Source of the DNA: Eubacteriales bacterium
GTDB lineage: Bacteria; Bacillota; Clostridia; Oscillospirales; SIG627
Length of the DNA: 43,319 bases
Reading direction: 5' to 3'
Assembly: GCA_045657125.1 (NCBI GenBank)
Contig: JAZOSM010000002.1
Location: forward strand, 1 to 43,319
This document shows positions 1-11,779 of the stretch, piece after piece; position 1 is the first letter of the stretch, and every line of letters starts with the position of its first letter. Position numbers and translations under genes: made by a program. The notes below the pieces were generated by a model. It did not search any database, had not been told where the DNA came from, and saw only the letters and a program-made list of their open reading frames with translations.

Positions 1-13
1 TCGTTCTTTTTTT

Positions 14-198
14 ATCCAAGCCGACAGGCTTGGTATATCATCAGCCTGTAGGGCTGTATATCATTACCGCACCTGTGCGGCGTATATCATCACGCGTAGC
101 GTGTATTTTTCTCGGCTTGATGATATAGAACTTCTTTCGAAGTTGATGATATGCAATTCCTTCGGAATTGACGATATACAACGGCAAGACGTTGATTT
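14..198. repeat. Hairpin-ladder element, copy A (3 forward TATATCAT linkers, 3 reverse ATGATATA-type linkers, 7 variable hairpins)
   Basis: Hairpins at 16-33, 42-56, 65-82, 91-103, 128-145, 154-170, 179-194. Linkers TATATCAT at 34, 57, 83 and ATGATATA/ATGATATG/ACGATATA at 120, 146, 171. Same architecture at 1067-1274 and 11443-11627. Confidence 0.9.
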
Positions 199-228
199 AT
201 AAAATTCAACCTCAGGTTGAAAAATATA

Positions 229-257
229 TTGAAAAATATTGGAAGATGTGATATAAT
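229..257 (+). promoter_or_regulatory. sigmaA-type promoter for histidine phosphatase gene
   Basis: TTGAAA(229-234)-17 bp-TATAAT(252-257) with extended -10 TG. Confidence 0.7.
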
Positions 258-301
258 GAGGCCACTAAATTGCGGAGCATACGGAAAAGGATATCAAGTA
301 T

Positions 302-991
302 ATGAAGATTTATTTTGTTCGCCACGGACACCCTGATTATGAAAACGATTGTTTGACAGAGCTGGGGCACAAGCAGGCCGTAGCCGCGGCAGAAAGATTA
401 AAGAATTGCGGAATCGAGCAAGTGTTTTCTTCTACCAAAGGAAGAGCTTTTCAAACCGCAGAGTATACTGCAAAAGCACTTGGTTTGCAGGTGATATCTT
501 GTGATTTTATGAGAGAAATAGGGTGGCGTTCAATTGACGGAGAGCCTATTTTGGCAAATGGACATCCATGGAGTCTTTCTGACATCTTTGCCTCCGAGGG
601 TAAAACTTTGACCGACAAAGAGTGGTACATGAAAGAGCCATATTGCAAAAGCAAGGTGGTAAGTTCTGCCGATGTCGTAAAAAAGGGGCTCGACGCGTGG
701 TTTGCCGAGCTCGGATATCAAAGAGAGGGAGAGTATTATCGAGTAGTTGGCGAAGCAACAGAAAAAACGGTTGCCATGTTCAGCCATGGTGGCTCTTCTT
801 CCGTAGCGTTGTCGCACATTTTGAACATCCCCTTTCCCCAAATTTGCGGCATTTTTCATCCTGATTTTACTTCAATTACTGTGGTTGAGTTTTCGGATAA
901 AATCGGAGAGCTTTTTTGCCCCGTACTGCTTCTTTTGAATGATGCACGGCATATAGAAGGTCTTGATAGCAAAAAAACATACGAAGAGTGA
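302..991 (+). CDS. Histidine phosphatase / phosphoglycerate mutase family protein
   Basis: N-terminal FVRHG motif, LTELGHKQA, SSTKGRAFQTA and C-terminal FSHGG; RBS AAAGGA upstream. Confidence 0.9.
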   Translation: MKIYFVRHGHPDYENDCLTELGHKQAVAAAERLKNCGIEQVFSSTKGRAFQTAEYTAKALGLQVISCDFMREIGWRSIDGEPILANGHPWSLSDIFASEGKTLTDKEWYMKEPYCKSKVVSSADVVKKGLDAWFAELGYQREGEYYRVVGEATEKTVAMFSHGGSSSVALSHILNIPFPQICGIFHPDFTSITVVEFSDKIGELFCPVLLLLNDARHIEGLDSKKTYEE

Positions 992-1031
992 GTCCTAAAA
1001 GGAAGTGGCATCTTTTTTGTCAACACGCGCC

Positions 1032-1066
1032 AAAAAAGAGATACTCAATTGAGTATCTCTTTTTTT
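1032..1066. terminator. Intrinsic (bidirectional) terminator directly upstream of element copy B
   Basis: Palindrome AAAAAAGAGATACTCAATTGAGTATCTCTTTTTT. Confidence 0.8.
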
Positions 1067-1274
1067 ATCCAATCCGAAGGATTGGTATGTAATCGCCGTT
1101 AGGCGTATGTAATCAGTTCGCTCTGCGAACTGTATGTCATCAAAGCATTAGCTTTGTATGTTTTTTCCTTCGGATTGATTACATACCGACTTTGTCGGAT
1201 TACATCCACGGCGTTGCCGTGATTACATACATTTTGTTACGAAAATGATTACATGCAACACTTCGTGTTGATTT
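1067..1274. repeat. Hairpin-ladder element, copy B (linker variant TATGTAAT / ATTACATA)
   Basis: Hairpins at 1069-1085, 1094-1105, 1114-1132, 1141-1156, central TCC-TTC-GGA, 1186-1198, 1207-1221, 1230-1247, 1256-1270. Linkers TATGTAAT/TATGTCAT at 1086, 1106, 1133 and ATTACAT(A/C/G) at 1178, 1199, 1222, 1248. Confidence 0.9.
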
Positions 1275-1296
1275 AGTGGCGGATTTCTGCTATACT
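1268..1296 (+). promoter_or_regulatory. sigmaA-type promoter whose -35 is the right end of element B
   Basis: TTGATT(1268-1273)-17 bp-TATACT(1291-1296) with extended -10 TG; RBS GAGGTG then ATG at 1316. Confidence 0.6.
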
Positions 1297-1315
1297 CTAA
1301 TTAAGAGGTGAGAGT

Positions 1316-1558
1316 ATGAAAGAAAATCTTTTGCTTAAATATGCCGAACAGTTGGCATTTCAAATTGAAATTTTATGCAAATCTTTAGAACGCAAAGACA
1401 ATTCTAATGTGATTTTTCAAATTCGTAAATCTTCTTCGAGTGTCTTTGCAAATATTACTGAAGCTCAATATCCTCAAAGTTTATCCGATATGCTTTCTAA
1501 ATTCAAAATTGCTCGTAAAGAGTGTGTTGAAACAGAAAGTTGGTTAAAACTTTTATAG
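1316..1558 (+). pseudogene. Four-helix-bundle protein (23S rRNA IVP / TIGR02436 / Avd-like family), C-terminally truncated
   Basis: QIRKSSSSVFANITEA...DMLSKFKIARKECVETESWLKLL matches the family consensus (QLxRSxxSxxANIxE...FxxKLxIAxKExxETxYWLxLL). Stops at 80 aa, lacking the last helix expected in ~110-120 aa members. Confidence 0.8.
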
Positions 1559-1580
1559 TTCATCCTTTATGTGGGAATAC

Positions 1581-1614
1581 AAAAGAGAACACTTCGTATG
1601 AAGTGTTCTTTTTT
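1581..1614. terminator. Intrinsic terminator after four-helix-bundle gene
   Basis: AGAACACTTC-GTAT-GAAGTGTTCT followed by T-tract. Confidence 0.75.
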
Positions 1615-1673
1615 GTCCAAATATGCAGACTGTATCTGTAAAGTTGATATAAAAAAAGCCGAGTTTTTTTCGG

Positions 1674-1703
1674 TTGCACTTTTTTAGAAAAATATGTTAT
1701 AAT
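1674..1703 (+). promoter_or_regulatory. Putative sigmaA promoter for anti-sigma operon
   Basis: TTGCAC(1674-1679)-18 bp-TATAAT(1698-1703) with extended -10 TG. Confidence 0.5.
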
Positions 1704-1805
1704 AGAAAAAAGGTTATTCGATCTTCTTTTCTTTGGAGTCTTGCAGGGGATGAAATTGTCGGTTCATCACGCAAAAAGATTCAGGAAAGATTGGAGGGAA
1801 AAATA

Positions 1806-2357
1806 ATGAAGGCTGAATGCAGTGTAATTTGTGATTTGCTTCCACTTTATGCGACGGATCGGGTAAGTCCCGAAACCGCAGAGTTTGTAAAAGCTCATTT
1901 GGAGGATTGTGCCGCGTGTCGGGCAGAGCTTGCGTGCTTGGGATCAGGAAAAAAATTATCCGAGATTGAGAAAAATCCTAACGAAATGGCGAGTGAGTCA
2001 AAGCCTTTTAAAAATTTCTTTAAAAGATTCAAGACACAGTTTCGCTATTTTGCGTATGCCGCTTTGATCTTTTTGATTTTTCTCGGCTTTAGTGCGACTT
2101 GCGGAGAAGACTTAATGTATAATACCTTGATTATGCCTGCCGTAGGTGTGATCGGTTACTACGTTTTCCGTGAAAAATCGATTTTTAAGGTTCCGCTTCT
2201 CCTTTTGACCATTGATACTCTTTTGTGGTTGCTGGATTACGTTGATCTTGATTTTTATTCCGTATTGTTATGGACGGTGATTTACACCTTTTTTATTGGC
2301 ATTGGAATTGCCATTGGATTTTTCCTGCATTTTGCATTCAGAAAGGAGAATGGCTGA
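1806..2357 (+). CDS. zf-HC2 zinc-finger anti-sigma-like membrane protein
   Basis: MKAECSVICDLLPLY...HLEDCAAC (HxxxCxxC) then about 4 hydrophobic segments. Start moved to ATG 1806 after RBS GGAGGG. Confidence 0.85.
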   Translation: MKAECSVICDLLPLYATDRVSPETAEFVKAHLEDCAACRAELACLGSGKKLSEIEKNPNEMASESKPFKNFFKRFKTQFRYFAYAALIFLIFLGFSATCGEDLMYNTLIMPAVGVIGYYVFREKSIFKVPLLLLTIDTLLWLLDYVDLDFYSVLLWTVIYTFFIGIGIAIGFFLHFAFRKENG

Positions 2358-3190
2358 TGAGAAATCGAATTTTGAAAATTTTCTCCTTTGTTTTTGCTCT
2401 GATTTTGATTGCAGGCGTACTTTTTATTTCAAATGCTTTTGCCGGGAATCCGATTTCAAAAGCACTTGCCACCAACGCCGCCCAAAAGCATCTTGAAAAA
2501 AATTATTCCGATCAGAATTTTTTGTTGGAAGACGTTTCCTATAACTTTAAGGATGGATATTATCACGGATTTGTTTATGATCCCAACAGCATGGATCGTG
2601 ATTTTAGCATTCTTATTGATATATGGGGTAAGGTGAGATACGATACCTATGAGGATCGTGTGCTTTCGGGCAGAAATACTGCCGATCGAATCAGTATGGA
2701 TTACAGAGCCGCTGTGGATACGGTTTTGGAAAGCAGAGTGTTTCCCTACAGCACAAACATCGGATACGGCGATTTCGAAATGTATCCCCGTGACCTTTCA
2801 GAAGATGAAACTGTTCCCGCGTATGCGCTGATTACCGATGATTTGATCATTGATTCTTTTTACGATGTGAATGAACTCGGTGCAAAGCACGGGAAACTTA
2901 CGATTTATATTGACAGCAAAACGGTTTCTTATGAGGAATTGTCCAAAATTCTCCTTGAAATCAAAAAAATGTTTGACGATGCGGGTGTAAAATTTTACGT
3001 AATTGATTGTGTGCTTGAATATCAGCCGGATCAGGATGGAAAGCGCAAAGAAGCCCGTGTCGAAGTGCGCGAATTTTTATATGCAGATATTTACGAGGAT
3101 GAAATGGTGCAGCGCGTAAAGGTTTCTGATGAAGCGGCACGTGCTTATTACAAAGAGCAAGATGCGGAGAAATCGGAAGAAATTCTATAA
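2357..3190 (+). CDS. Membrane-anchored YfjL-like protein
   Basis: TGA/ATG overlap with upstream gene and RBS AAGGAG; N-terminal TM helix followed by GNPISK...HLEKNY...YNFKDGYY. Confidence 0.6.
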   Translation: MRNRILKIFSFVFALILIAGVLFISNAFAGNPISKALATNAAQKHLEKNYSDQNFLLEDVSYNFKDGYYHGFVYDPNSMDRDFSILIDIWGKVRYDTYEDRVLSGRNTADRISMDYRAAVDTVLESRVFPYSTNIGYGDFEMYPRDLSEDETVPAYALITDDLIIDSFYDVNELGAKHGKLTIYIDSKTVSYEELSKILLEIKKMFDDAGVKFYVIDCVLEYQPDQDGKRKEARVEVREFLYADIYEDEMVQRVKVSDEAARAYYKEQDAEKSEEIL

Positions 3191-3240
3191 TCTATGCGCT
3201 TTTTATGCACCGGACTGCCTGTGGAAAAAGGAGAACTGAA

Positions 3241-4110
3241 ATGTATCAGGATATGTTTGGGGAAACGCGCTATAAAATCGGTCTGCATATTCATACGAAT
3301 TTGTCAGATGGACGCGTATCTCCCGAAGAATGTGGAAGAATCTATAAAGAGGCAGGATTTGACGCCATTGCCATTACGGACCATTGGAAATACGGCGCAG
3401 AGGGGGAGCTTTCCGGCTTGAAAATTTTTTCAGGCTGTGAGTATCACGTAGGCAATGCGGATACCGTGGAAGGCGTGATGCATATCGTCGGTGTCGGTAT
3501 GGACTCGGAGCCTGCGAATCTTACCCGTGAAAGTACCCGTCAAGAGATTATTGACGGAATCAGAAGCAGTGGCGGTATTGCAATATTTGCCCATCCTGCG
3601 TGGTCATTGAATGCCCCCGATCACGCCAAGGCTTTATCTGGCTTTGGCGCCTTGGAAATTTATAATACGGTTTCCGAATGCGGACAAAGCAACCGTCCGT
3701 ATTCCGGTTACCTTGTGGATCTTCTTGCAAACGAGGGGATTACATACCCGCTGATTGCAACGGACGATACCCATTATTACGCGGGAAGTGATGAAACAAA
3801 GGCTTATATTATGGTAAAAGCAAAAAGCCTTGATCAAAAATCTATTCTCGAAGCTATTGCAAATTGTGATTTTTACGCAACTCAGGGACCCGAACTTCAC
3901 GTCACCCGCCGTGGGGATAAAATTATTGTGCATTGCAGCGAATGCGAGACACTTGCTTTTATGAGCAACCGTGTCTGGGCACCCGATCGAATGAAGCGCG
4001 GTGCAGTAACTTATGCCGAATATCAGCTTACGGACGTTGAAAAATGGATTCGTGTGGAAGTAAAAGATAAAAACGGGCTTTATGCTTGGAGCAATATCAT
4101 CGTTCTTTGA
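3241..4110 (+). CDS. PHP-domain metallohydrolase (CehA/McbA-like)
   Basis: LHIHTNLSDG, AITDH, GCEY, AHP, ATDDTH motifs; RBS AAGGAG. Confidence 0.85.
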   Translation: MYQDMFGETRYKIGLHIHTNLSDGRVSPEECGRIYKEAGFDAIAITDHWKYGAEGELSGLKIFSGCEYHVGNADTVEGVMHIVGVGMDSEPANLTRESTRQEIIDGIRSSGGIAIFAHPAWSLNAPDHAKALSGFGALEIYNTVSECGQSNRPYSGYLVDLLANEGITYPLIATDDTHYYAGSDETKAYIMVKAKSLDQKSILEAIANCDFYATQGPELHVTRRGDKIIVHCSECETLAFMSNRVWAPDRMKRGAVTYAEYQLTDVEKWIRVEVKDKNGLYAWSNIIVL

Positions 4111-4148
4111 ACGGAATGATATAAAGCGAAAATATAACGGAGTAAAAT

Positions 4149-5060
4149 ATGAACGAAAAGATTTCAAATTTGGCGCAGATGGCAAGCTTGCGTCGCTACA
4201 CCATCGCCGAGGGCAGGGAAAAAGGTCTTGAGGTAATTGATTGTGATAACGGAACCATTCGCTTCCTGTTAAACGTGACCAAAGCTTGTGATATGATGCA
4301 GCTTTACCACAAAGGGCAGAATATGACCTTTGTATCCAAAAACGGATTTATAAAAAGAGAACTTCCTTTTGTAAATCGTTTCGAGGGCGGTATGCTCTAC
4401 ACCTGTGGTCTTGACAGTTGCGGAGAACGGGAGGGATTTGAGGAGCACGGTTCTTTTCATAATACCCCCGCGGAGATCTTGCGTGCAGAATGCAGTGAAG
4501 AAGGAATTGTAGTGGAGGCCTTGGTTCGAGATACCGCTATGGGCGGCAAGAACCTTGTCCTGCACCGTAGAATTACTACCGATCTCGGGGCATCGCAGGT
4601 TTCCGTAGTGGATCGTTTGACCAACCATGGCTTTTTTGATGAAAAATATTGCCTGTTGTATCACGTGAACTTAGGATACCCCTTGGTGGATGCTGATGCG
4701 AAAATCGTATGTGACTCCGCTGAGTGTATGCCTCGTACAGCGTGGGCAGAAAAGAATTTGGATTCGGCGTACCAAATCAGTGAACCTGCCCCGGGTTTTG
4801 AGGAAACCTGTTATTATTTGATGCCCAAAACCCCGAAAGTATCTTTGGTCAATGAAAAAATCGGGAAAAAGTTTACCGTCTCGTATTCCGCCGATACCTT
4901 GCCGCAGTTTCTGGAGTGGAAGAATATGACCAGCGGTGATTATGCCGTAGGGCTCGAGCCTGCTACCACAAAGCTGGATCATTTATTTGAACTGAGCACG
5001 ATCGGACACGGAGAGACTATCGAGTTTCGCGTGGTTCTGAACATCTGTGAAATTGAATGA
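4149..5060 (+). CDS. Aldose 1-epimerase-like protein (DUF4432 family)
   Basis: FEGGMLYTCGL, EHGSFHNTPA, LYHVNLGYP and GLEPAT motifs. Confidence 0.8.
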   Translation: MNEKISNLAQMASLRRYTIAEGREKGLEVIDCDNGTIRFLLNVTKACDMMQLYHKGQNMTFVSKNGFIKRELPFVNRFEGGMLYTCGLDSCGEREGFEEHGSFHNTPAEILRAECSEEGIVVEALVRDTAMGGKNLVLHRRITTDLGASQVSVVDRLTNHGFFDEKYCLLYHVNLGYPLVDADAKIVCDSAECMPRTAWAEKNLDSAYQISEPAPGFEETCYYLMPKTPKVSLVNEKIGKKFTVSYSADTLPQFLEWKNMTSGDYAVGLEPATTKLDHLFELSTIGHGETIEFRVVLNICEIE

Positions 5061-5128
5061 TTTGAACGGAAAAATTTACTGTTTTCACCATCCAACAGCG
5101 AAAAAAACTTGAGAAACAGGAGGTTTTT

Positions 5129-5983
5129 ATGCGTGCAAAAACAATTGTAAAAATTGTGGTGTTCGTCCTTTTGATCGCCTTGATCGTCGCGTTCGTCTAT
5201 TGGACGAAGTGGGAGAACACCATTCTCGAGAGCAATACGTACACGGTTTCAAGCACTCGTTTGCCGAAGGCATTTAACGGATACCGCATTGCACAGGTTT
5301 CTGATTTCCATAATCAGAAATGGGGCGAAGAAAACGAAACGCTTCTGACTCTGTTGGCGAAAGCCGAGCCTGATATGATAGCCTTGACAGGCGATTTGAT
5401 TGACTCTCGCGATTTGAATATTGAAATTGCGCTGGAATTTGCAGAAAAAGCAATGCAGATCGCTCCTTGCTACTACGTGACGGGAAATCACGAATCGAGA
5501 ATTTCTCAACTTAATGAATTGAAAGACGGCTTGGTCAAAGCGGGTGTGATTGTCCTTGAGGATCAGCAGGTGAAGATCGAAAAGGACGGAGAATCCATCG
5601 TTGTGATCGGTTTGAACGACCCTGCCTTTCGCACGGACGATTGGTTTGGAGATTCTTCTGCAGTTTTGGAAAAACAACTGCGAAATTTGAAAAAAGAGGA
5701 GCTTTATACAGTGCTTCTTTCCCATAGACCCGAAGCGTTTGACGTCTATGTGCAATACGACGTTGACCTGGTTCTCAGCGGACATACCCACGGCGGTCAG
5801 TTCAGACTTCCGTATTTTGGCGGTATTTACGTGCCGCAGCAAGGCTTTTTCGGAGAATACGACGCAGGTCTGTTCGCGCAGGAAAATACCAATATGATCG
5901 TCAGCAGAGGTGTTGGCAACAGCTCGATCCCGTTTCGAATCAATAATAAAGCCGAGATCCTCGTAATTGAACTTACAAACTAA
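5129..5983 (+). CDS. Calcineurin-like metallophosphoesterase (YkuE/YaeI-like) with N-terminal TM helix
   Basis: SDFH, TGDLID, TGNHE, SHRP, SGHTHGGQ, SRGVG motifs. Confidence 0.9.
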   Translation: MRAKTIVKIVVFVLLIALIVAFVYWTKWENTILESNTYTVSSTRLPKAFNGYRIAQVSDFHNQKWGEENETLLTLLAKAEPDMIALTGDLIDSRDLNIEIALEFAEKAMQIAPCYYVTGNHESRISQLNELKDGLVKAGVIVLEDQQVKIEKDGESIVVIGLNDPAFRTDDWFGDSSAVLEKQLRNLKKEELYTVLLSHRPEAFDVYVQYDVDLVLSGHTHGGQFRLPYFGGIYVPQQGFFGEYDAGLFAQENTNMIVSRGVGNSSIPFRINNKAEILVIELTN

Positions 5984-5986
5984 AAG

Positions 5987-6020
5987 AAAAGGATGTGTAG
6001 AGTTTCTACACATCCTTTTT
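5987..6020. terminator. Bidirectional terminator between convergent genes
   Basis: AAAAGGATGTGTAGA-GTT-TCTACACATCCTTTT. Confidence 0.85.
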
Positions 6021-6039
6021 ATCGTTTTGTTGCGGATTT

Positions 6040-7815
6040 TTATTTTTTCAGCTTGTTGCCGACAACGTCGCTCAAAATTTCCTTGAAGGCCTCGAGAGAG
6101 AGGGCGCCCAGATCTTCTCCGGAACGGTGACGAACGGAAATGGTACCGTTTTCCATATCCTTGTCGCCTACGATGATCATATAAGGGATCTTTTCCATCT
6201 GCGCGCCGCGGATCTTATAGCGCAGGGTATTCTGACTTTCATCAACGGTTACGCGATATTTGTCTTTGGCGAGGCTCTTTTTAATGGAGTCTGCATATTC
6301 TACCGCTCTGTCGGTAATGGGGAGAATACGAATCTGCTCGGGAGCCATCCACGTGGGCAGTGTGCGTGCATATTTTTTCAAAAGGTAAGCCAAGGTGCGC
6401 TCGTAGCAGCCAAGACTGGTTCTGTGAATGATATAAGGGAGCTTCTTCTGTCCGTCGCTGTCGATATAGTACATACCGAACTTTTCTGCGAGAAGCATGT
6501 CGATCTGAATGGTAACGATGGTATCCTCTTTGCCGAATACGTTCTTGTACTGAATATCAAGCTTCGGTCCGTAGAAGGCGGCCTCGCCGATACCGATTTC
6601 GTAGTTTACACCCAGATTGTCGAGAATCTTCTTCATCGTTTCCTGTGCGGATGCCCACTGCTCGGGAGTACCTTCGTACTTTGCAGTGTTTTCGGGATCC
6701 CACTGAGAGAAGCGGAAGGAGCAATCCTCCAGCATACCGACGGTTTCCAAGAAGTATTTGCACAGAGCAAAGCTGTCTGCAAATTCTGATTCCAACTGAT
6801 CGGGACGGAGAACCAAGTGACCCTCGGAAATGGTGAACTGACGAACACGGATCAAACCGTGCATTTCACCGGAATCCTCGTTGCGGAACAGGGTAGAGGT
6901 TTCGCCCAAACGCATGGGAAGATCGCGGTAACTTCTTGCTTGGTTCAGATATACCTGATACTGGAAAGGACAGGTCATGGGACGAAGTGCGAGACATTCC
7001 TTTTCATCGTTATCGGGATCACCCATAATAAACATACCGTCGCGGTAATGATCCCAGTGACCGGAAATCTTGTAAATATCACTCTTTGCCATCAAGGGCG
7101 TTTTGGTCAGAATGTAATCGTGCTCCTGCTCAACGTCCTCAACCCAGCGCTGCAAAAGTTGAATGACTCTGGAGCCCTTGGGAAGCAGAATGGGCAGACC
7201 CTGACCGATGGGATCTACCGTAGTAAAGTAGCCGAGCTCTCTGCCGAGCTTGTTGTGGTCGCGCTTTCTTGCTTCTTCACGGGCGGTAATAAAGGCATCC
7301 AGTTCTTCCTTTTTCTGGAAGGAAATGCCGTAAATACGCTGCAGCATCTTGTTCTTTTCATCACCGCGCCAATAAGCACCCGTAGCAGCCAGCAGCTTGA
7401 TTGCGTTTCCTTTTACTCTGCCGGTGGAATCCAAGTGAGGACCTGCACAAAGGTCGGTAAACTCGCCCTGCTTGTAGAAAGAAATTTCTTCATCTGCAGG
7501 AAGCTCGTTGATCAATTCAATTTTATAGGGCTCTGCAGCCATAAGGGTAAGTGCTTCTTCCTTGGGAAGGGTGAAGCGCTCGATTTTCAATTTTTCTTTG
7601 CAAATGGCTCTCATTTCGCTTTCGATCTCGGTCAATGCTTCGGGGGTGATGGAAGACTCAAGATCAATATCGTAGTACCATCCCTCTGCAATGGCAGGAC
7701 CGATGGCAAGCTTTGCTTCGGGAAATTTGCGTTTGATTGCCTGCGCCATAATATGAGAGCAGGTGTGCCAATAAGTCTTTCTGAATTCTTCGTTTTCAAA
7801 CGTGTATTCGCTCAT
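6040..7815 (-). CDS. thrS: Threonine--tRNA ligase (no N-terminal TGS domain)
   Basis: HTCSH editing motif, DLCAGPH, RDHNKLG, LRPMTCP, GLIRVRQF, FYGPKLD, IIHR; preceded by T-box. Confidence 0.97.
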   Translation of the reverse strand: MSEYTFENEEFRKTYWHTCSHIMAQAIKRKFPEAKLAIGPAIAEGWYYDIDLESSITPEALTEIESEMRAICKEKLKIERFTLPKEEALTLMAAEPYKIELINELPADEEISFYKQGEFTDLCAGPHLDSTGRVKGNAIKLLAATGAYWRGDEKNKMLQRIYGISFQKKEELDAFITAREEARKRDHNKLGRELGYFTTVDPIGQGLPILLPKGSRVIQLLQRWVEDVEQEHDYILTKTPLMAKSDIYKISGHWDHYRDGMFIMGDPDNDEKECLALRPMTCPFQYQVYLNQARSYRDLPMRLGETSTLFRNEDSGEMHGLIRVRQFTISEGHLVLRPDQLESEFADSFALCKYFLETVGMLEDCSFRFSQWDPENTAKYEGTPEQWASAQETMKKILDNLGVNYEIGIGEAAFYGPKLDIQYKNVFGKEDTIVTIQIDMLLAEKFGMYYIDSDGQKKLPYIIHRTSLGCYERTLAYLLKKYARTLPTWMAPEQIRILPITDRAVEYADSIKKSLAKDKYRVTVDESQNTLRYKIRGAQMEKIPYMIIVGDKDMENGTISVRHRSGEDLGALSLEAFKEILSDVVGNKLKK

Positions 7816-7829
7816 AATAACCTCCTAAG

Positions 7830-8080
7830 AAAAAAATCCCACCCCTGACCGTCGGTCAGGGGTGGGATAATCATAAACTATCTCACGGTTCCACCCTGAT
7901 TACAGGAAAAACCTGTCACTTTTTTTGCTGTTACGGGCAAACCCGTTCGACTTACTTGCAGATGCAATTCGCCGACTGCTCCGAGGTGGTAACGCGATCG
8001 TGTTCAATAATCAAGCTTTCAGCTAATGCTCGATCTCTCTGTAAATTCACGGAAAGCATCGTGTCCTCATCAATGCCGTT
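7830..8080 (-). ncRNA. T-box riboswitch leader (Thr, ACC specifier) with terminator
   Basis: Minus strand shows AGAGA and GCTGAAA stem-I motifs, ACC specifier (~7985-7990), T-box AGGGTGGAACCGTG (7884-7897) and terminator hairpin 7836-7868 with U-tract. Confidence 0.93.
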
Positions 8081-8086
8081 TGACAC

Positions 8087-8115
8087 ATTATATCACGGAG
8101 TTTTCCCTGTGTCAA
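8087..8115 (-). promoter_or_regulatory. sigmaA promoter of thrS leader
   Basis: TTGACA-17 bp-TATAAT on minus strand. Confidence 0.85.
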
Positions 8116-8146
8116 GATTTTGAAATGCAATTGAAGACGGCGTTTT

Positions 8147-9412
8147 TTAATTTCTGATTTCAATGGGAGTGGACTCAAGAAGCTGAAAAATGCCTTGGGT
8201 TTTCTGTTCCATAAAGGGGGCGTCAAATCCTTCTGCGGAAACGTTTTCAAATACCACTTTTTCGAAATTGGTACAAATCAAAAGAGGGAAGTCTTCCGTG
8301 TTTTCTTTCTTGGTGATACGGCAGTTTTTCAAAGTGAAGGTAACCTTTTCGTTGGCATCGCCGTGAAGAATTCCTTCTGCATCCAAATTCAAGAAATCAC
8401 AGTTTTCAAAAGCAATGGAGGAAAGACTGCGGTTGCAGCACCATTTATGCTCACCGTCAAATTCCAAACGGAACAAACGGCGAATGCCGTCGAACGAGCA
8501 GTTTCTCACCAAAATATCACCGGGGGTTTTGCGAATCTCCGCGCGGAAATCACAGTAATACAAAAAGGGATTGTGAGCGATGTGACGAGCACTTTCGGTG
8601 GGCAAATGTGAAAACTGTCTTTGGTCTTTCGGGATAGAGCCGCGGAATCCGAAACGGCACGGAGTGGAACGGCAGTTTTCTATCAGCACGTTGTTTCCGC
8701 CAAAACGGAATACACTGCAGGCACTTTGAAAATCGCAGTTTCGAACCGTAACGTCGTGGTTGTCAAATCCTGCAATACAGTCGTCACCCGTGTGAAAAGT
8801 GCAGTTTTCCACGAGAACGTTGTCGCAGGTGCGCACGTCAAAGCCATCGTGACCGCCGTAGACGGAAACGTTTTGCACAACAATGTTTTGACTTTGGAAG
8901 ATGGCGTGTGCCCAGTTGGCACTGTCGATGATGGTATAGCCGGAAAGGGTCAGCCCATCGCATCGCCATACGGAAACGGCGTGAGGACCGCGATAATTTT
9001 CCTCCCCTTCGGGATTATAAACGTTGCGCCCGTCGATGTAAGAGCCTTTTTCACCGGTGATGCTGACGTTTTTGGCATCCAATACGCGGATCAATCCGTT
9101 GCACCAAGTGCTCGTGGCAATGGCGGAACGGGCAACACCCTCGCGATTCTCATCCTTGACAGGCTCGATGGTGTCATTCCAAAAATCGTTGTAATCATCG
9201 GGGTTTTCACTTCCGCGGAGAATAGCGCCGCTTTCCAGATATAATTCTACGTTTGAGCGCAGACGAATGCCGCCTGTGACGAAAATACCGCAGGGAACGA
9301 CAACTCGTCCGCCGCCTGCCAAAAAGCAAGCATCAATGGCATTTTGAATTGCCTTGGTCTGAAGAAAGTCGGATGTGACCGCACCGAAATCCGTTATGGT
9401 AAATACATGCAT
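8147..9412 (-). CDS. Glycoside hydrolase family 28 / pectin lyase-fold protein
   Basis: ITDFGA, TKAIQNAID, GGGRVVVP, LRSNVELYLESGA, HDGFD, TGDDCIA; start at ATG 9412 after GAGG. Confidence 0.85.
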   Translation of the reverse strand: MHVFTITDFGAVTSDFLQTKAIQNAIDACFLAGGGRVVVPCGIFVTGGIRLRSNVELYLESGAILRGSENPDDYNDFWNDTIEPVKDENREGVARSAIATSTWCNGLIRVLDAKNVSITGEKGSYIDGRNVYNPEGEENYRGPHAVSVWRCDGLTLSGYTIIDSANWAHAIFQSQNIVVQNVSVYGGHDGFDVRTCDNVLVENCTFHTGDDCIAGFDNHDVTVRNCDFQSACSVFRFGGNNVLIENCRSTPCRFGFRGSIPKDQRQFSHLPTESARHIAHNPFLYYCDFRAEIRKTPGDILVRNCSFDGIRRLFRLEFDGEHKWCCNRSLSSIAFENCDFLNLDAEGILHGDANEKVTFTLKNCRITKKENTEDFPLLICTNFEKVVFENVSAEGFDAPFMEQKTQGIFQLLESTPIEIRN

Positions 9413-9565
9413 GGCAAACCTCGTTTTGTTTGGATTTTTCTTTATTCTAACACACCCGATTTTTTTTGCAATACTTTTGTCCAAAAAGATTTTTTTTCGT
9501 TGACTTATTTTTTCTTTTTTTGTATAATTGGCTTATAATCTTCATTGTTTGAAAGGATCAAAGCG

Positions 9566-11233
9566 ATGGAAAAGAAATGGTGGCACGAGGCAGTAGGCTA
9601 CGAGATTTATTGTAAAAGCTTTTGTGATTCCAACGGTGACGGAATCGGCGACCTGCAGGGTGTTAAGTCAAAGCTTGGCGTTCTTCGGGATTTGGGTGTG
9701 AACTGTATTTGGTTTGCGCCGATCTATCGTTCTCCTCAGGTTGACAATGGTTACGACGTTTCCGACTATATGGATATTGAACCCGCCTACGGAACTCTTG
9801 AGGATTTCAAGGATTTGCTTGACACCGCCCATTCTATGGGTATCCGCGTGATTATGGATCAGGTTCTCAATCACTCCTCCGATGAGCATTATTGGTTCCG
9901 TGAATCCCGCAAATCCAAGGACAACCCTTATCGCAATTACTATATTTGGCAGCCGCCCCGCGAAGACGGTTCCGAGCCCACGAACTGGGGCAATTATTTT
10001 CACGAGGGAAACGGATCTGCATGGACTTTTGACGAAACCACAGGCGAATATTATTTCCATCAGTATTCGGCAAAAATGCCCGACTTGAACTGGGAATACG
10101 AGCCCTTGCGCCAAGAGATTTATAAAATGCTGCACTTTTGGCTGGACTTGGGCGTGGATGGCTTCCGCCTTGACGTGTTTACCCGCTTCAAGAAAATGCC
10201 CGGTTTCCCCATGAGTACCAAAACTCCCGATCCGAAGCTTGACCGCAAAGGATACGTCGTGGATTATACTATGTGCACCCACGTTCCCGGCATCCACGAA
10301 ATTCTCAAAGATATCAATAAAAACGTATTTTCCAAGAGAGAATGTATGACTATGGGCGAAGGTGCAGGCACCACTTGGGAGCTTGCCCCCGATTATATTT
10401 CCCCCGAGAGAGGGGAGATCGATTCTCTCTACCATTTTGAACTTTCCAGCCGCAGAAGAAGTCAGATTTCTCCCGAGTTGTTCCGTACCGTTCAGAAGAG
10501 ATGGGCAGGGGTTATGGAAAAGGGCGGATGGAATATTCAGTATCTTTCCAATCACGATTCCCAAAGACAGGTTACCTGTTATGGTGACGAAGCCTGGCGC
10601 GTAGAATCCGCAAAGCTTCTGGCTACTTTGACCCATACCACCCCCGGCATTCCCTTTATCTATCAGGGCGAGGAAATCGGTATGGTCAACGTGCGTTTTG
10701 ACTCTATCGAGGATTATAACTGCTGCTATACCTTGGGCGCTTATCAGTCTATGATCGAAAACGGCTACTCCGTAGAGGAGGCTATGGAGTTTATCTCCTC
10801 CCAAAGCCGTGACAACGCCCGTACCCCTTATCAGTGGGATGATAGCGAGAATGCAGGCTTTACCACAGGTAAGCCTTGGCTGAAGGTCAATCCCCGTTAT
10901 AAGGAGATCAACTTGAAAAAGGACCTGGCTTCTCCCGATTCCATTTTCCGTCATTACAGAGCGTTGGCGGATCTGAGAAAGGAGCACCCTGCCATCATTC
11001 ACGGCGATCTGAACTTCTATTTGGAGGATGATGCAGACGTGATCGTCTATACCAGAAAATGCGAGGAAGAAACCCTGCTTGTTATAGCAAACAAATCCTC
11101 GGCAGAGCGTAAGATCACTCTTCCCGCAGAGCTTACCGAAGGAAAGGTGCTTCTTTCCAACCTTGTAAAGGAAAATCCCTTGGCAAAAGAAATGACCCTT
11201 TCTCCTTGGGAAGCAGTTGTTTACAAAATCTGA
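9566..11233 (+). CDS. GH13 alpha-glucosidase / oligo-1,6-glucosidase
   Basis: YEIYCKSFCDSNGDGIGD, DNGYD, VLNH, QYSAKMPDLNW, GFRLDV, NHD, YQGEEIG, SRDNARTP. Confidence 0.92.
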   Translation: MEKKWWHEAVGYEIYCKSFCDSNGDGIGDLQGVKSKLGVLRDLGVNCIWFAPIYRSPQVDNGYDVSDYMDIEPAYGTLEDFKDLLDTAHSMGIRVIMDQVLNHSSDEHYWFRESRKSKDNPYRNYYIWQPPREDGSEPTNWGNYFHEGNGSAWTFDETTGEYYFHQYSAKMPDLNWEYEPLRQEIYKMLHFWLDLGVDGFRLDVFTRFKKMPGFPMSTKTPDPKLDRKGYVVDYTMCTHVPGIHEILKDINKNVFSKRECMTMGEGAGTTWELAPDYISPERGEIDSLYHFELSSRRRSQISPELFRTVQKRWAGVMEKGGWNIQYLSNHDSQRQVTCYGDEAWRVESAKLLATLTHTTPGIPFIYQGEEIGMVNVRFDSIEDYNCCYTLGAYQSMIENGYSVEEAMEFISSQSRDNARTPYQWDDSENAGFTTGKPWLKVNPRYKEINLKKDLASPDSIFRHYRALADLRKEHPAIIHGDLNFYLEDDADVIVYTRKCEEETLLVIANKSSAERKITLPAELTEGKVLLSNLVKENPLAKEMTLSPWEAVVYKI

Positions 11234-11330: not shown

Positions 11331-11406
11331 AGGGATGTAGCCAAGCGGTTAAGGCACCAGACTTTGACTCTGGCACTCGTGAGTTCAAATCTCGCCATCC
11401 CTGCCA
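11331..11406 (+). tRNA. tRNA-Gln (anticodon TTG)
   Basis: Acceptor AGGGATG/CATCCCT, D-arm GCC..GGC, anticodon arm CCAGA-CTTTGAC-TCTGG, T-loop TTCAAAT, encoded CCA; 76 nt. Confidence 0.97.
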
Positions 11407-11442
11407 AAAAATTCGACAAGTTTCAACTTGTCGAATTTTTTT
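11407..11442 (+). terminator. tRNA terminator directly upstream of element copy C
   Basis: AAAAATTCGACAAGTT-TC-AACTTGTCGAATTTTT. Confidence 0.85.
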
Positions 11443-11627
11443 ATCCAAGCCGCAGGCTTGGCATATCATCACGACGCAGTCGTGTATATCATCAAGGGCG
11501 CATTGCGCCCTGGTATCTCATCACGCGCCAGCGTGCATTTCCTGCGGAATTGATGATATACAATGCTTCGCATTGATGATATACCGCAACAAGTTGCGGA
11601 TGATATACACGGCTTTCGCCGTGATTT
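11443..11627. repeat. Hairpin-ladder element, copy C
   Basis: Hairpins at 11445-11461, 11470-11484, 11493-11513, 11522-11535, central TTCC-TGC-GGAA, 11561-11575, 11584-11599, 11608-11623. Linkers CATATCAT/TATATCAT/TATCTCAT then ATGATATA x3. Confidence 0.9.
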
Positions 11628-11779
11628 ATGCAAGAGTTCGAATTCATACGCAAAACTGCTGAAAATATCTTTTTTGATTGATGTGTTCCCTTCGGGAATA
11701 TGATGCCGCTACGCGAATGATGTCACGTTGGATGACGATTCTATTCCGTTTTTTGTGCAGATTGACTGCTTGTTTTTTG

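What the first reader, a model, noticed from the sequence alone, without database searches (positions are those of the whole stretch)
14..198. 'Hairpin-ladder' element: constant 8-nt linkers alternating with hypervariable hairpins, with the second half inverted
Seen, parsed as hairpins in brackets: AT-[CCAAGCC gaca GGCTTGG]-TATATCAT-[CAGCCT gta GGGCTG]-TATATCAT-[taCCGCA cctg TGCGGcg]-TATATCAT-[CACGC gta GCGTG]-centre-ATGATATA-[gAACTTC tttc GAAGTTg]-ATGATATG-[CAATTCC ttc GGAATTG]-ACGATATA-[CAACG gcaaga CGTTG]-ATTT. The hairpins are unrelated to each other and only the linkers repeat. The right-half linkers are the reverse complement of the left-half linkers. Inference: a single strand would fold into a central 3x8-bp helix interrupted by essentially perfect four-way junctions, each carrying a left and a right hairpin. 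This is the inverse of a CRISPR array (short non-palindromic repeat, palindromic spacers). It is not a REP, terminator or riboswitch I recognise. An extra hairpin TTCAACC-tca-GGTTGAA follows at 205-221.
Basis: partly seen in the sequence, partly recalled or inferred. Interest (0 to 1): 0.88.

Follow-up and report, generated by a model that had tools for sequence, protein, structure and literature searches.

The report
Hairpin-array repeat tied to Avd-like genes
The "hairpin ladder" is real and belongs to a multi-copy family of modular non-coding DNA cassettes in gut Clostridia that sit just after tRNA genes and accompany a small four-helix-bundle ("23S rRNA intervening-sequence"/Avd-like) gene, but the evidence favours strand-specific hairpin units read one by one rather than one folded ladder RNA.

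Summary
Observation confirmed. Window 14-198 holds 7 hairpins separated by 3 TATATCAT and 3 inverted ATGATATA-type linkers; there are two more copies in the window and about 18 in the genome. The triple-linker pattern occurs in 37 of 251 genomes sampled from the order.

The element is a cassette with these features:
- It carries its own terminator, which starts right at a tRNA 3' end in 8 of 18 copies.
- It has two inverted arrays of oriented units: a C-G-footed hairpin with a G..A loop plus an 8-nt motif.
- Its TTGATT end is the -35 of a promoter that, in 7 loci of this genome, drives a PF05635/TIGR02436 four-helix-bundle gene.

Elsewhere in the phylum (Bacillota by the record labels), PF05635 genes are bracketed by plain inverted arrays of tandem 6-8-nt repeats, as in the classic IVS. 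The ladder looks like a hairpin-interrupted variant of that.

A ladder fold is the predicted minimum-energy structure in 17 of 20 elements. However, linker point variants are compensated in only 1 of 51 cases, and loop and wobble asymmetry is mirrored between the halves. The hairpins are conserved; the central helix is not shown.

Best reading (0.4): strand-specific hairpin units recognised by a protein, probably the cognate Avd-like protein. This resembles the GRNA-loop DNA hairpin of DGR target sites. No Rfam, phage or plasmid match, and no RNA data.

The parts
1..13 (+). T-run end of the upstream terminator module; the contig starts here
   Evidence: In other copies the same TTTTTTTAT junction follows a complete terminator hairpin.
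14..200 (+). Ladder copy 1, family A (FFF-centre-RRR), orphan: hp1 16-33; linkers 34-41, 57-64, 83-90 / 120-127, 146-153, 171-178; centre 104-119; TTGATT 192-197
205..221 (.). Extra hairpin TTCAACC-tca-GGTTGAA. Scored as a terminator-like site on the minus strand.
   Evidence: The same hairpin follows the homologous element in L058.
229..257 (+). Promoter-like site TTGAAA-17-TATAAT of the histidine-phosphatase gene (302-991)
1032..1065 (+). Terminator module of copy 2 (A6-stem-loop-stem-T6)
1067..1273 (+). Ladder copy 2: linkers TATGTAAT (left) and ATTACATA (right); hp1 CCAATCC/GGATTGG; the centre carries the covarying GGATTG
1268..1296 (+). Promoter-like TTGATT-17-TATACT (TG-extended). Its -35 is the last 6 nt of ladder copy 2.
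1316..1558 (+). PF05635 / TIGR02436 four-helix-bundle gene, truncated (80 aa; profile positions 5-79 of 106)
11331..11406 (+). tRNA-Gln(ttg)
11406..11442 (+). Terminator module of copy 3
11443..11629 (+). Ladder copy 3, family A (FFF-centre-RRR), orphan
11685..11745 (+). Short degenerate hairpin array with TGATG-type linkers. It resembles the array in front of the PF05635 gene on contig C68.

Best explanation
**What it is.** The element is one copy of a modular, multi-copy non-coding cassette that belongs with the PF05635/TIGR02436 (Avd-like four-helix-bundle, '23S rRNA IVS protein') gene family.

**Anatomy (shown):**
1. Its own intrinsic-terminator hairpin, which begins 0-2 nt after the upstream gene, often a tRNA.
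2. Two arrays of 3-5 oriented units in inverted orientation. Each unit is a 4-11-bp hairpin with a C-G foot, usually a C-G closing pair and a G..A tri- or tetraloop, followed by an 8-nt motif of the form TAT-R-N-M-AT.
3. A centre complementary to the 5' arm plus loop of the first hairpin.
4. A TTGATT end that serves as the -35 of a promoter. In the complete form this promoter drives the four-helix-bundle gene. Orphan copies such as 14-198 have lost or never had the gene.

**How it most likely works (inferred).** The conserved thing is the unit, not the long-range helix. Each hairpin forms on the strand where its motif reads TATATCAT, either in extruded or transiently single-stranded DNA or in nascent RNA. 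It is recognised together with its flanking motif by a protein.
- The best candidate is the cognate four-helix-bundle protein, made in cis or, for orphans, in trans.
- The nearest precedent is the DGR target site. There, a GC-rich DNA hairpin with a 5'-GRNA loop on one strand lies between the variable repeat (VR) and the avd gene.

**Other properties.**
- The cassette spreads or is homogenised between tRNA 3' ends by duplication or gene conversion.
- Hairpin modules are exchanged at the constant motifs.
- As a side effect or host benefit, it supplies a terminator upstream and a promoter downstream.
For: **Link to PF05635**
- Window 1316-1558 is PF05635 (E 4e-14) and TIGR02436.
- Of 9 PF05635 matches in the genome, 7 loci have a ladder or inverted array directly upstream. 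One is a 5'-truncated fragment without one, and one lies at a contig end.
- Different linker motifs go with different protein subgroups.
- 34 of 37 genomes in the order sample that carry the triple-TATATCAT pattern also have PF05635, against 73 of 214 without the pattern. I cross-tabulated by hand. Related genomes are not independent.
- In other genomes of the phylum, PF05635 ORFs are bracketed by tandem 6-8-nt repeats and their reverse complements. This is visible by eye in at least 14 of the 22 loci my profile picked out of 30 fetched. Four of them lie inside 23S rRNA.
- C90 of this genome has the plain, hairpin-free version in the same tRNA-terminator-array-ORF layout.

**Oriented units**
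- G..A against T..C loops are 42:1 of 86 hairpins in family A and 40:0 of 91 in family B.
- The foot pair is C-G in 80 of 86 and the closing pair C-G in 66 of 86.
- G.T wobbles outnumber A.C mismatches 11:1 on the motif strand in both halves.
- The same motif variants (C at position 1, C at position 4) occur in both halves when read on that strand.

**Hairpins under constraint**
- 62 of 86 hairpins are perfect and fill the whole slot.
- 23 pairs of stems differ by one compensated change.

**The terminator is part of the repeat**
- A 62-nt stretch (terminator plus first hairpin) is identical behind tRNA-Val, tRNA-Arg and tRNA-Glu. The next three hairpins are replaced wholesale and the downstream genes are only about 85% alike.

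**Position**
- 8 of 18 copies lie 15-53 nt after a tRNA.
- Of 31 family-A elements, 26 have a T-run upstream. Thirteen of the 29 with enough flank have a tRNA within 140 nt.

**DGR precedent**
- Passages of PMC3240598 describe 7-10-bp GC stems with a 4-nt 5'-GRNA loop on the sense strand. Stem sequences are free and the loop is essential.
Against: - No binding, expression or structure-probing data exist. No RNA run was listed.
- The protein-recognition step is pure inference from linkage, co-occurrence and analogy. Linkage and co-diversification would also arise from simple co-inheritance.
- Family A places the arrays converging and family B diverging relative to the gene. There is therefore no single fixed geometry between units and promoter.
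- Stems are shorter than in DGR hairpins (mode 6 bp), and half the loops are triloops.
- No reverse transcriptase was found in the genome, which is 77% complete. This is not a DGR.
- The ladder fold is the thermodynamic optimum. All linkers of both halves change together between subfamilies, which a pairing model also predicts.
- I found no empty site, so mobility is inferred from copy number and mosaic identity only.
Confidence: 0.4

Rival explanations
1. Structured RNA. One strand is transcribed, for example by read-through from the tRNA or as a leader. It folds into a stem of 8-bp linker helices with hairpin branches. This would be the counterpart of the IVS stem that RNase III cuts.
For: - The predicted minimum-energy fold has left-right linker pairing in 17 of 20 elements (RNA parameters).
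- z-scores are -5.9 and -6.5.
- Left and right linkers are reverse complements in every subfamily seen: TATATCAT, TATGTAAT, TATGGAAT, TATGAAAT, GTGATAT, GTGATG and ATGAAGC.
- Classic PF05635 elements have complementary flanks. In Coxiella these flanks form a 28-bp stem cut by RNase III (passages of PMC4990558).
Against: - Only 1 of 51 linker variants is compensated.
- Loop and wobble asymmetry is mirrored between halves. A single RNA would carry U..C loops and A.C mismatches in one half.
- The element lies after a strong terminator and before the promoter.
- Pairing alone does not require all linkers within an element to be identical.
Confidence: 0.15
2. Bidirectional transcription barrier or insulator. 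Each unit acts co-transcriptionally as a weak intrinsic terminator (GC hairpin followed by UAUAUCAU). The converging arrays stop RNA polymerase from either side, between a highly transcribed tRNA gene and the next promoter.
For: - The elements sit in terminator-to-promoter gaps.
- The first module is a bona fide terminator. The last left hairpin is followed by TATTTTT and scores as terminator-like.
- The hairpins, G.U tolerance and G..A loops lie on the strand an incoming polymerase would transcribe in family A.
Against: - Family B has the arrays diverging, so incoming transcription meets the opposite orientation.
- The motif has only 4 U in 8.
- The model does not explain why motifs change in concert with the PF05635 subgroup, the centre-to-first-hairpin complementarity, or the genome-level co-occurrence with PF05635.
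Confidence: 0.2
3. Purely selfish MITE-like DNA. The inverted arrays are transposon ends with several subterminal binding sites, as in Mu or Tn7 (recalled from general knowledge, not from a call). An unidentified enzyme mobilises them. The four-helix-bundle gene is cargo or an accessory factor, and the hairpins are by-products of palindrome correction.
For: - There are many copies per genome: about 18 here, and up to 17 pattern matches in one relative.
- Only the ladder and the PF05635 part of window 250-2400 match relatives at DNA level (22 of 41 genomes).
- Contig depth over the ladders is 20-30 times that of the flanks.
- A 62-nt block is identical at three tRNA loci.
- A hairpin loop is inverted between orthologues (ttta in L013/L088, taaa in L105).
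- A 46-nt insertion with duplicated GCAG sits inside the first hairpin of L116 and L057.
Against: - No transposase lies next to any copy. The only Y1 transposase trace is a 47-residue fragment on C133 with no ladder beside it.
- No target duplication or empty site was found.
- There is no match in the phage or plasmid collections.
- The strand-specific loop bias (82:1 over both families) needs selection or a directional copying process.
Confidence: 0.2

Closest known systems
23S rRNA intervening sequences carrying a PF05635 (S23p / four-helix-bundle) ORF
   Same: The protein family is the same. The ORF is accompanied by two mutually complementary repeat blocks. Here I found those blocks to be tandem 6-8-nt units in other genomes of the phylum, including 4 loci inside 23S rRNA. 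The literature regards the IVS as a selfish or possibly mobile element (PMC4990558, abstract and passages).
   Different: - Both arrays lie upstream of the ORF instead of bracketing it.
- The units are separated by perfect hairpins.
- The site is after tRNA or protein genes, not inside rRNA.
- The cassette has its own terminator and promoter.
- Most copies are orphans without the ORF.
DGR target-site hairpin/cruciform (between the variable repeat VR and avd)
   Same: Both are GC-rich stems of free sequence with a conserved G...A loop on one defined strand. Both lie next to a gene of the Avd/PF05635 superfamily and function as DNA structure (PMC3240598 passages; the homology of Avd and PF05635 is stated in PMC10053308).
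   Different: - Here there are arrays of 6-9 hairpins rather than one.
- Stems are mostly 5-7 bp, and loops are tri- as well as tetranucleotides.
- A conserved 8-nt motif follows each hairpin.
- No template repeat (TR), VR or reverse transcriptase was found.
REP/BIME and BOX-type modular intergenic repeats (recalled from general knowledge, not from a call)
   Same: Both are interspersed, modular, hairpin-forming intergenic repeats with variable numbers of modules.
   Different: - In REPs the palindrome is the conserved part. Here the palindromes vary and the spacer is conserved.
- The ladders lie after terminators, not before them.
- No RAYT gene is associated.
CRISPR arrays
   Same: Both show regular alternation of a constant and a variable segment, with whole-module replacement between copies.
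   Different: - The constant segment is 8 nt and non-palindromic, and the variable segments are palindromes drawn from a shared repertoire.
- The second half is inverted.
- Arrays are short (3-5 units) and multi-copy.

Membership tests
Any Rfam 15 family | Score at or above the family's gathering threshold | tested here: not met
   the only match in the whole window is tRNA; 13 sub-threshold matches in 1-1400, all far below their gathering scores.
PF05635 IVS-type element | A PF05635 ORF belongs to the element | tested here: inconclusive
   Met for copy 2 (1316-1558) and for 7 of 9 PF05635 loci in the genome. Not met for the copy in question (14-198) or for most copies: 6 of 31 family-A elements have the ORF downstream.
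PF05635 IVS-type element | Complementary repeat blocks bracket the ORF and can close it in a stem | tested here: not met
   Both arrays lie upstream of the ORF. No inverted array was seen downstream of intact ORFs.
PF05635 IVS-type element | Inserted in helix 25/45 of 23S rRNA and excised by RNase III | tested here: not met
   The location is after tRNA or protein genes. Excision cannot be tested with these tools.
DGR target hairpin | 7-10-bp GC-rich stem and a 4-nt 5'-GRNA loop on one strand | tested here: inconclusive
   Loops are G..A in 42 of 86 against T..C in 1. Stems are 4-11 bp with a mode of 6. There are 41 triloops and 39 tetraloops.
DGR target hairpin | Reverse transcriptase and TR/VR repeats in the same genome | tested here: not met
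   No RVT_1 match in the genome, which is 77% complete. TR/VR pairs were not searched.
REP/BIME | Conserved palindrome sequence and an associated RAYT (Y1 transposase) flanked by the repeats | tested here: not met
   There are 33 different stems. The only Y1_Tnp trace is a fragment on C133 with no ladder beside it.
CRISPR array | Direct repeats of about 23-55 nt with unique non-palindromic spacers | tested here: not met
   The repeat is 8 nt, the spacers are perfect palindromes and half the array is inverted. cas genes were not searched.
MITE | Terminal inverted repeats, target-site duplication, insertion polymorphism | tested here: inconclusive
   Inverted arrays and high copy number are met. 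No duplication or empty site was found, and the two likely orthologous loci lacked synteny.
Intrinsic terminator | GC-rich hairpin followed by a U-tract | tested here: inconclusive
   Met by the 5' module (T-run in 26 of 31) and weakly by the last left hairpin. The internal units are followed by TATATCAT, with 4 T in 8.
Integron attC | R''/L'' and L'/R' core sites with an integron integrase | not tested
   Considered only as an analogy.

The most novel reading that the evidence does not exclude
Stand-alone Avd-like four-helix-bundle proteins (PF05635) are sequence- and structure-specific readers of DNA hairpins with G..A loops. The ladder is their cognate multi-site target.
- Protein and target together would form a previously unrecognised kind of self-propagating 'terminator - hairpin array - promoter' cassette that colonises tRNA 3' ends in gut Clostridia.
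- The cassette would exchange hairpin modules at its 8-nt motifs.
- This would give a function to a large orphan protein family.
- It would also explain why DGR homing needs a GRNA-loop hairpin beside avd.
Probability: 0.22. Interest if true: 0.85.

Novelty: new variant of a known kind. Interest (0 to 1): 0.72.

Why it matters
PF05635/TIGR02436 is a large family with no known role outside DGRs. It occurs in 107 of 251 genomes sampled in this order and 49 of 301 in the phylum. The 23S rRNA IVS has been an unexplained 'selfish element' for 30 years.

Three observations turn that question into a testable protein-nucleic-acid pair:
- The gene travels with arrays of a short motif. These are plain tandem repeats in most of the phylum and hairpin-interrupted ladders in gut Oscillospirales-type Clostridia.
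- The hairpins are strand-specific, with G..A loops.
- The hairpins resemble the DGR target hairpin.

The cassette is also a natural module that carries a terminator, a structured spacer and a promoter. It breaks metagenome assemblies at tRNA loci, which matters for annotation and binning of gut MAGs.

Tried and rejected
- **Rfam.** Gathering and E-value modes found nothing.
- **Phage and plasmid collections.** A distant blastn of 1-230 gave no match.
- **Expression.** No RNA holder was listed for window 1-10000.
- **Laying contigs.** Contigs of four DNA runs showed only that the ladder bins are deep and that contigs break there. The joints listed link different ladder copies and are repeat artefacts. 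No clean empty site appeared.
- **Empty-site search.** I used the gene downstream of copy 3. The two best relatives (65% and 59% identity) have no tRNA or ladder upstream and no synteny, so this was uninformative.
- **MAFFT alignment.** Aligning 13 elements shifted the right-half slots against each other. I therefore did not run fold_alignment, the count of structure pairs or a covariance model on it, and counted pairs slot by slot in scripts instead. R-scape as such was not run.
- **Alternative helix.** Pairing between the 5' arm plus loop of the first hairpin and the centre is complementary over 8 nt or more in 15 of 20 elements, and it covaries (mean 8.4 against 5.0 in mismatched controls). 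It appears in the predicted optimum of only 1 of 20. Its meaning is unexplained.
- **REP/RAYT and DGR membership.** Both rejected.
- **Literature.**
  - Searches for PF05635, TIGR02436, 'intervening sequence protein', S23p and Avd-like and for the motif strings found no description of these arrays.
  - Those searches cover only the held library, and supplements were not read.
  - The papers on cas-locus association of 23S_rRNA_IVP (PMC3936711 and PMC10910872, passages only) do not mention repeats.
- One search had a slice error, redone. One search had a key error. One search used the wrong slot offset and gave zero hairpins; it was corrected.
- **tRNA detection.** Detection missed some visible tRNA 3' ends (for example L088, L105, L066), so 13 of 29 is a lower bound.
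Full report
**1.

- Seven hairpins lie in 16-194.
- Three TATATCAT linkers sit at 34-41, 57-64 and 83-90.
- Three inverted linkers sit at 120-127, 146-153 and 171-178.
- A 16-nt centre lies at 104-119, and a further hairpin at 205-221.

This is far more than chance.
- TATATCAT occurs 10 times in the window against 0.77 expected. None of 100 shuffles reached 10.
- The region folds far better than shuffles (z -5.9). The second copy gives z -6.5.
- Rfam has nothing but a tRNA in the window.

**2. It is a repeat family**

The window holds two more copies.
- Copy 2 is at 1067-1273. Every left linker has become TATGTAAT and every right linker ATTACATA.
- Copy 3 is at 11443-11629, directly behind tRNA-Gln and its terminator.

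Scripts on the laid genome (1.99 Mb, 185 contigs, 77% complete) found 13 loci by k-mer logic and 17 by hairpin-plus-linker logic. I list 18 loci in total. They include other linker types: GTGATAT/ATATCAC, GTGATG/CATCAC, TATGAAAT/ATTTCATA and ATGAAGC/GCTTCAT.

The family is widespread in gut Clostridia.
Of the 80 rows shown, nearly all are labelled as gut or rumen Clostridia MAGs (Acutalibacteraceae, Oscillospiraceae, Faecousia, Eubacteriales, Christensenella). A few are evident chance or tandem-repeat hits, such as a Borreliella plasmid and two archaea.
- In an even sample of the order, 37 of 251 genomes (25 of 138 genera) have the pattern. The reversed control pattern gave 0.
- Only the ladder and the small gene behind it, out of window 250-2400, match relatives at DNA level (22 of 41 genomes, several places each).
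- Contig depth over the ladder bins is 20-30 times that of the flanks in four metagenome runs.

**3. Architecture**

Among 131 linker chains, the commonest layout is FFF-RRR, with 19 chains (F = TATATCAT, R = its complement). I call this family A.
- A second layout has the arrays diverging (RRRR-FFFF, family B).
- One-sided arrays also exist.

*3a. Hairpins of family A.* In 31 family-A elements there are 114 hairpin slots and 86 distinct sequences.
- 62 of 86 are perfect stems that fill the slot exactly.
- The foot pair is C-G in 80 of 86 and the closing pair C-G in 66 of 86.
- Loops are 41 triloops and 39 tetraloops.
- There are 33 distinct perfect stems, and 23 pairs of them differ by one compensated change.
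- 14 of the 33 stems recur in 2-9 loci, but only 4 of 33 occur in both halves.
- The hairpins are therefore constrained as hairpins and drawn from a shared repertoire. They are not random.

*3b. The units are oriented and strand-specific.* The counts below read each hairpin on the strand where its linker is TATATCAT.
- In family A, loops are G..A in 42 and T..C in 1 of 86. The left half gives 21:1 and the right half 23:0.
- In family B the count is 40:0 of 91.
- Stem mismatches are G.T/T.G 11 against A.C/C.A 1. The left half gives 7:0 and the right half 4:1.
- The right half is thus a mirror image of the left on the other strand. It is not the 3' half of one folded strand.

**4. The central helix is predicted but not conserved**

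The ladder fold is the thermodynamic optimum.
- Left-right linker pairing (12 or more of 24 nt) is in the predicted optimum of 17 of 20 elements with RNA parameters and 18 of 20 with DNA parameters.
- Left and right linkers are reverse complements in every subfamily.

Fine-scale covariation is missing.
- Within the TATATCAT family, 51 of 696 nested linker positions depart from consensus.
- Only 1 of those is compensated; 13 give G.T and 37 give mismatches.
- The same two variants, C at position 1 and C at position 4, occur in both halves when read on the motif strand. That is what an oriented recognition motif predicts.
- Pairing alone would not need all linkers of an element to be identical.

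One long-range complementarity does covary.
- The 5' arm plus loop of the first hairpin is complementary to the end of the centre over 8 nt or more in 15 of 20 elements. The mean is 8.4 nt against 5.0 in mismatched controls.
- Matching pairs include CCAAGCC-gaca with tgtcGGCTTG, CCATTGC-gaaa with tttcGCAATG, and CCATTAC-gga with tccGTAATG.
- This helix is in the predicted optimum of only 1 of 20. I cannot explain it.

**5. Context**

*5a. Upstream: a terminator, often behind a tRNA.* Every complete copy begins at the T-run of an intrinsic terminator (TTTTTTTAT-CC...).
- 26 of 31 family-A elements have the T-run. Thirteen of the 29 with enough flank have a tRNA gene within 140 nt upstream, which is a lower bound.
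- In the window's genome, 8 of 18 ladders lie 15-53 nt after one of the 46 tRNA genes, on the same strand.

The terminator is part of the repeat.
- Behind tRNA-Val (C131), tRNA-Arg (C37) and tRNA-Glu (C29), a 62-nt block is identical from 0-2 nt after the tRNA end. It covers the terminator and the first hairpin.
- The next three hairpins are replaced by unrelated modules.
- The right half is about 85-90% alike, and the downstream genes differ at many third positions.
- Terminator stems are also homologous between genomes, with compensated changes.

*5b. Downstream: a promoter and the PF05635 gene.* The last hairpin plus ATTT gives TTGATT, which is the -35 of a promoter.
- The promoter is TTGATT-17-TATACT at 1268-1296.
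- C131 and C37 have TTGATT-17-TATAAT.
- Four of 31 elements pass a strict pattern.

In copy 2 this promoter drives a truncated PF05635/TIGR02436 four-helix-bundle gene. A full-length relative matches PDB 2RLD.

**6. The link to PF05635 is the key to what it is**

Within this genome:
- Of 9 PF05635 matches, 7 loci have a ladder or inverted array directly upstream.
- One match is a 5'-truncated fragment without one, and one lies at a contig end.
- Linker type follows protein subgroup.

In relatives, the order tRNA operon - ladder - gene - ladder - PF05635 recurs.

At genome level, 34 of 37 pattern-positive genomes have PF05635, against 73 of 214 others. I cross-tabulated by hand. Related genomes are not independent, and pattern-negative genomes may carry other linker types.

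Elsewhere in the phylum I looked at the 22 PF05635 loci that my profile recognised among 30 fetched.
- At least 14 show, by eye, 3-5 tandem copies of a 6-8-nt unit just upstream of the ORF and the reverse complement just downstream.
- Four of them lie inside 23S rRNA, the classic IVS.
- Three sit at the same upp-to-next-gene junction with different repeat sequences.
- Contig C90 of the window's genome has the plain form with both arrays upstream: AGATAA xn - hairpin - TTATCT xn - RBS - ORF, behind tRNA-Arg and a terminator.

The ladder is therefore best seen as a hairpin-interrupted, ORF-external variant of the inverted tandem arrays that accompany this gene family.

**7. Mechanism**

*Shown:*
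- the modular anatomy;
- the strand-specific units;
- the terminator and promoter ends;
- the linkage and co-occurrence with PF05635;
- the mosaic identity between copies.

*Inferred:* the units are read one by one, as hairpins on the motif strand together with the motif, by a protein. The cognate four-helix-bundle protein is the obvious candidate.

The nearest precedent is the DGR target site.
- It is a hairpin or cruciform with a 7-10-bp GC stem of free sequence and a 4-nt 5'-GRNA loop on the sense strand.
- It lies between the variable repeat (VR) and avd.
- Function is lost when GAAA is replaced by CTTT (passages of PMC3240598).
- Avd and PF05635 are regarded as homologous (PMC10053308).

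This is not a DGR: no reverse transcriptase was found.

I put 0.4 on this reading. The rivals are:
- a bidirectional transcription barrier (0.2);
- a purely selfish MITE-like element (0.2);
- the single-RNA ladder (0.15).

No expression data could be had.

**8. Comparison and novelty**

- The element works like a cross between an IVS-type PF05635 element and a REP/BIME-like modular repeat.
- It fails the defining tests of each: bracketing repeats and an rRNA site for the IVS, and a conserved palindrome with a RAYT gene for REP.
- It also fails the tests for CRISPR and matches no Rfam family.
- My literature searches found no description of the ladders or of the tandem-unit nature of PF05635 flanks. 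They cover only the held library, without supplements.
- I rate it a new variant of a known kind. It is of real interest because it makes the function of a large orphan family testable.

Noticed in passing
L147, L145, L158, L142, L155, L168, L146, L143, L151, L156, L152, L162, L139, L140 (about 1300-1900 in each locus): In other genomes of the phylum, PF05635 ORFs are bracketed by 3-5 tandem copies of a 6-8-nt unit upstream and its reverse complement downstream. The unit sequence differs in each genome. Four loci are inside 23S rRNA. L147, L163 and L144 all sit between upp and the next gene.
   Followed up: partly
G000 contigs C131:8907-8970, C37:17075-17140, C29:365-430: A 62-nt block (terminator plus first hairpin) is identical behind three different tRNA genes (Val, Arg, Glu), while the next three hairpins are replaced wholesale. 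This is a mosaic exchange of modules at the 8-nt motifs.
   Followed up: yes
L116 and L057, first hairpin of the element: A 46-nt structured insertion sits in the loop of the first hairpin, with GCAG present on both sides. It may be a nested insertion with a 4-nt duplication.
   Followed up: no
L013/L088 versus L105, second left hairpin: Orthologous hairpin GCCGCA-ttta-TGCGGC against GCCGCA-taaa-TGCGGC. The loop is inverted between species, a DNA-level palindrome flip.
   Followed up: no
window 1316-1558; G000 C90:398-832; C68:8239-8728; C68:2750-2983: Several PF05635 genes of this genome are decayed: truncated at 80 aa, split in two, frameshifted, or 5'-truncated. This fits a dispensable or selfish gene.
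   Followed up: partly
window 11685-11745: A short degenerate hairpin array with TGATG-type linkers lies directly after ladder copy 3. It resembles the array in front of the PF05635 gene on C68.
   Followed up: partly
window 6256-7506: Contig depth in four metagenome runs rises to several hundred or thousand here. The ORF at 6040-7815 (minus strand) is a threonyl-tRNA synthetase, so the spike reflects conserved sequence from many organisms.
   Followed up: yes
window 11904-17189: A 1761-aa ORF has no Pfam domain at E 1e-5. Its N-terminal 300 aa have 5 matches in this genome and several in most relatives that have any, so it is a large paralogous family.
   Followed up: no
order-level sample: PF05635 is much commoner in this order (107 of 251 genomes) than in the phylum sample (49 of 301).
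   Followed up: no
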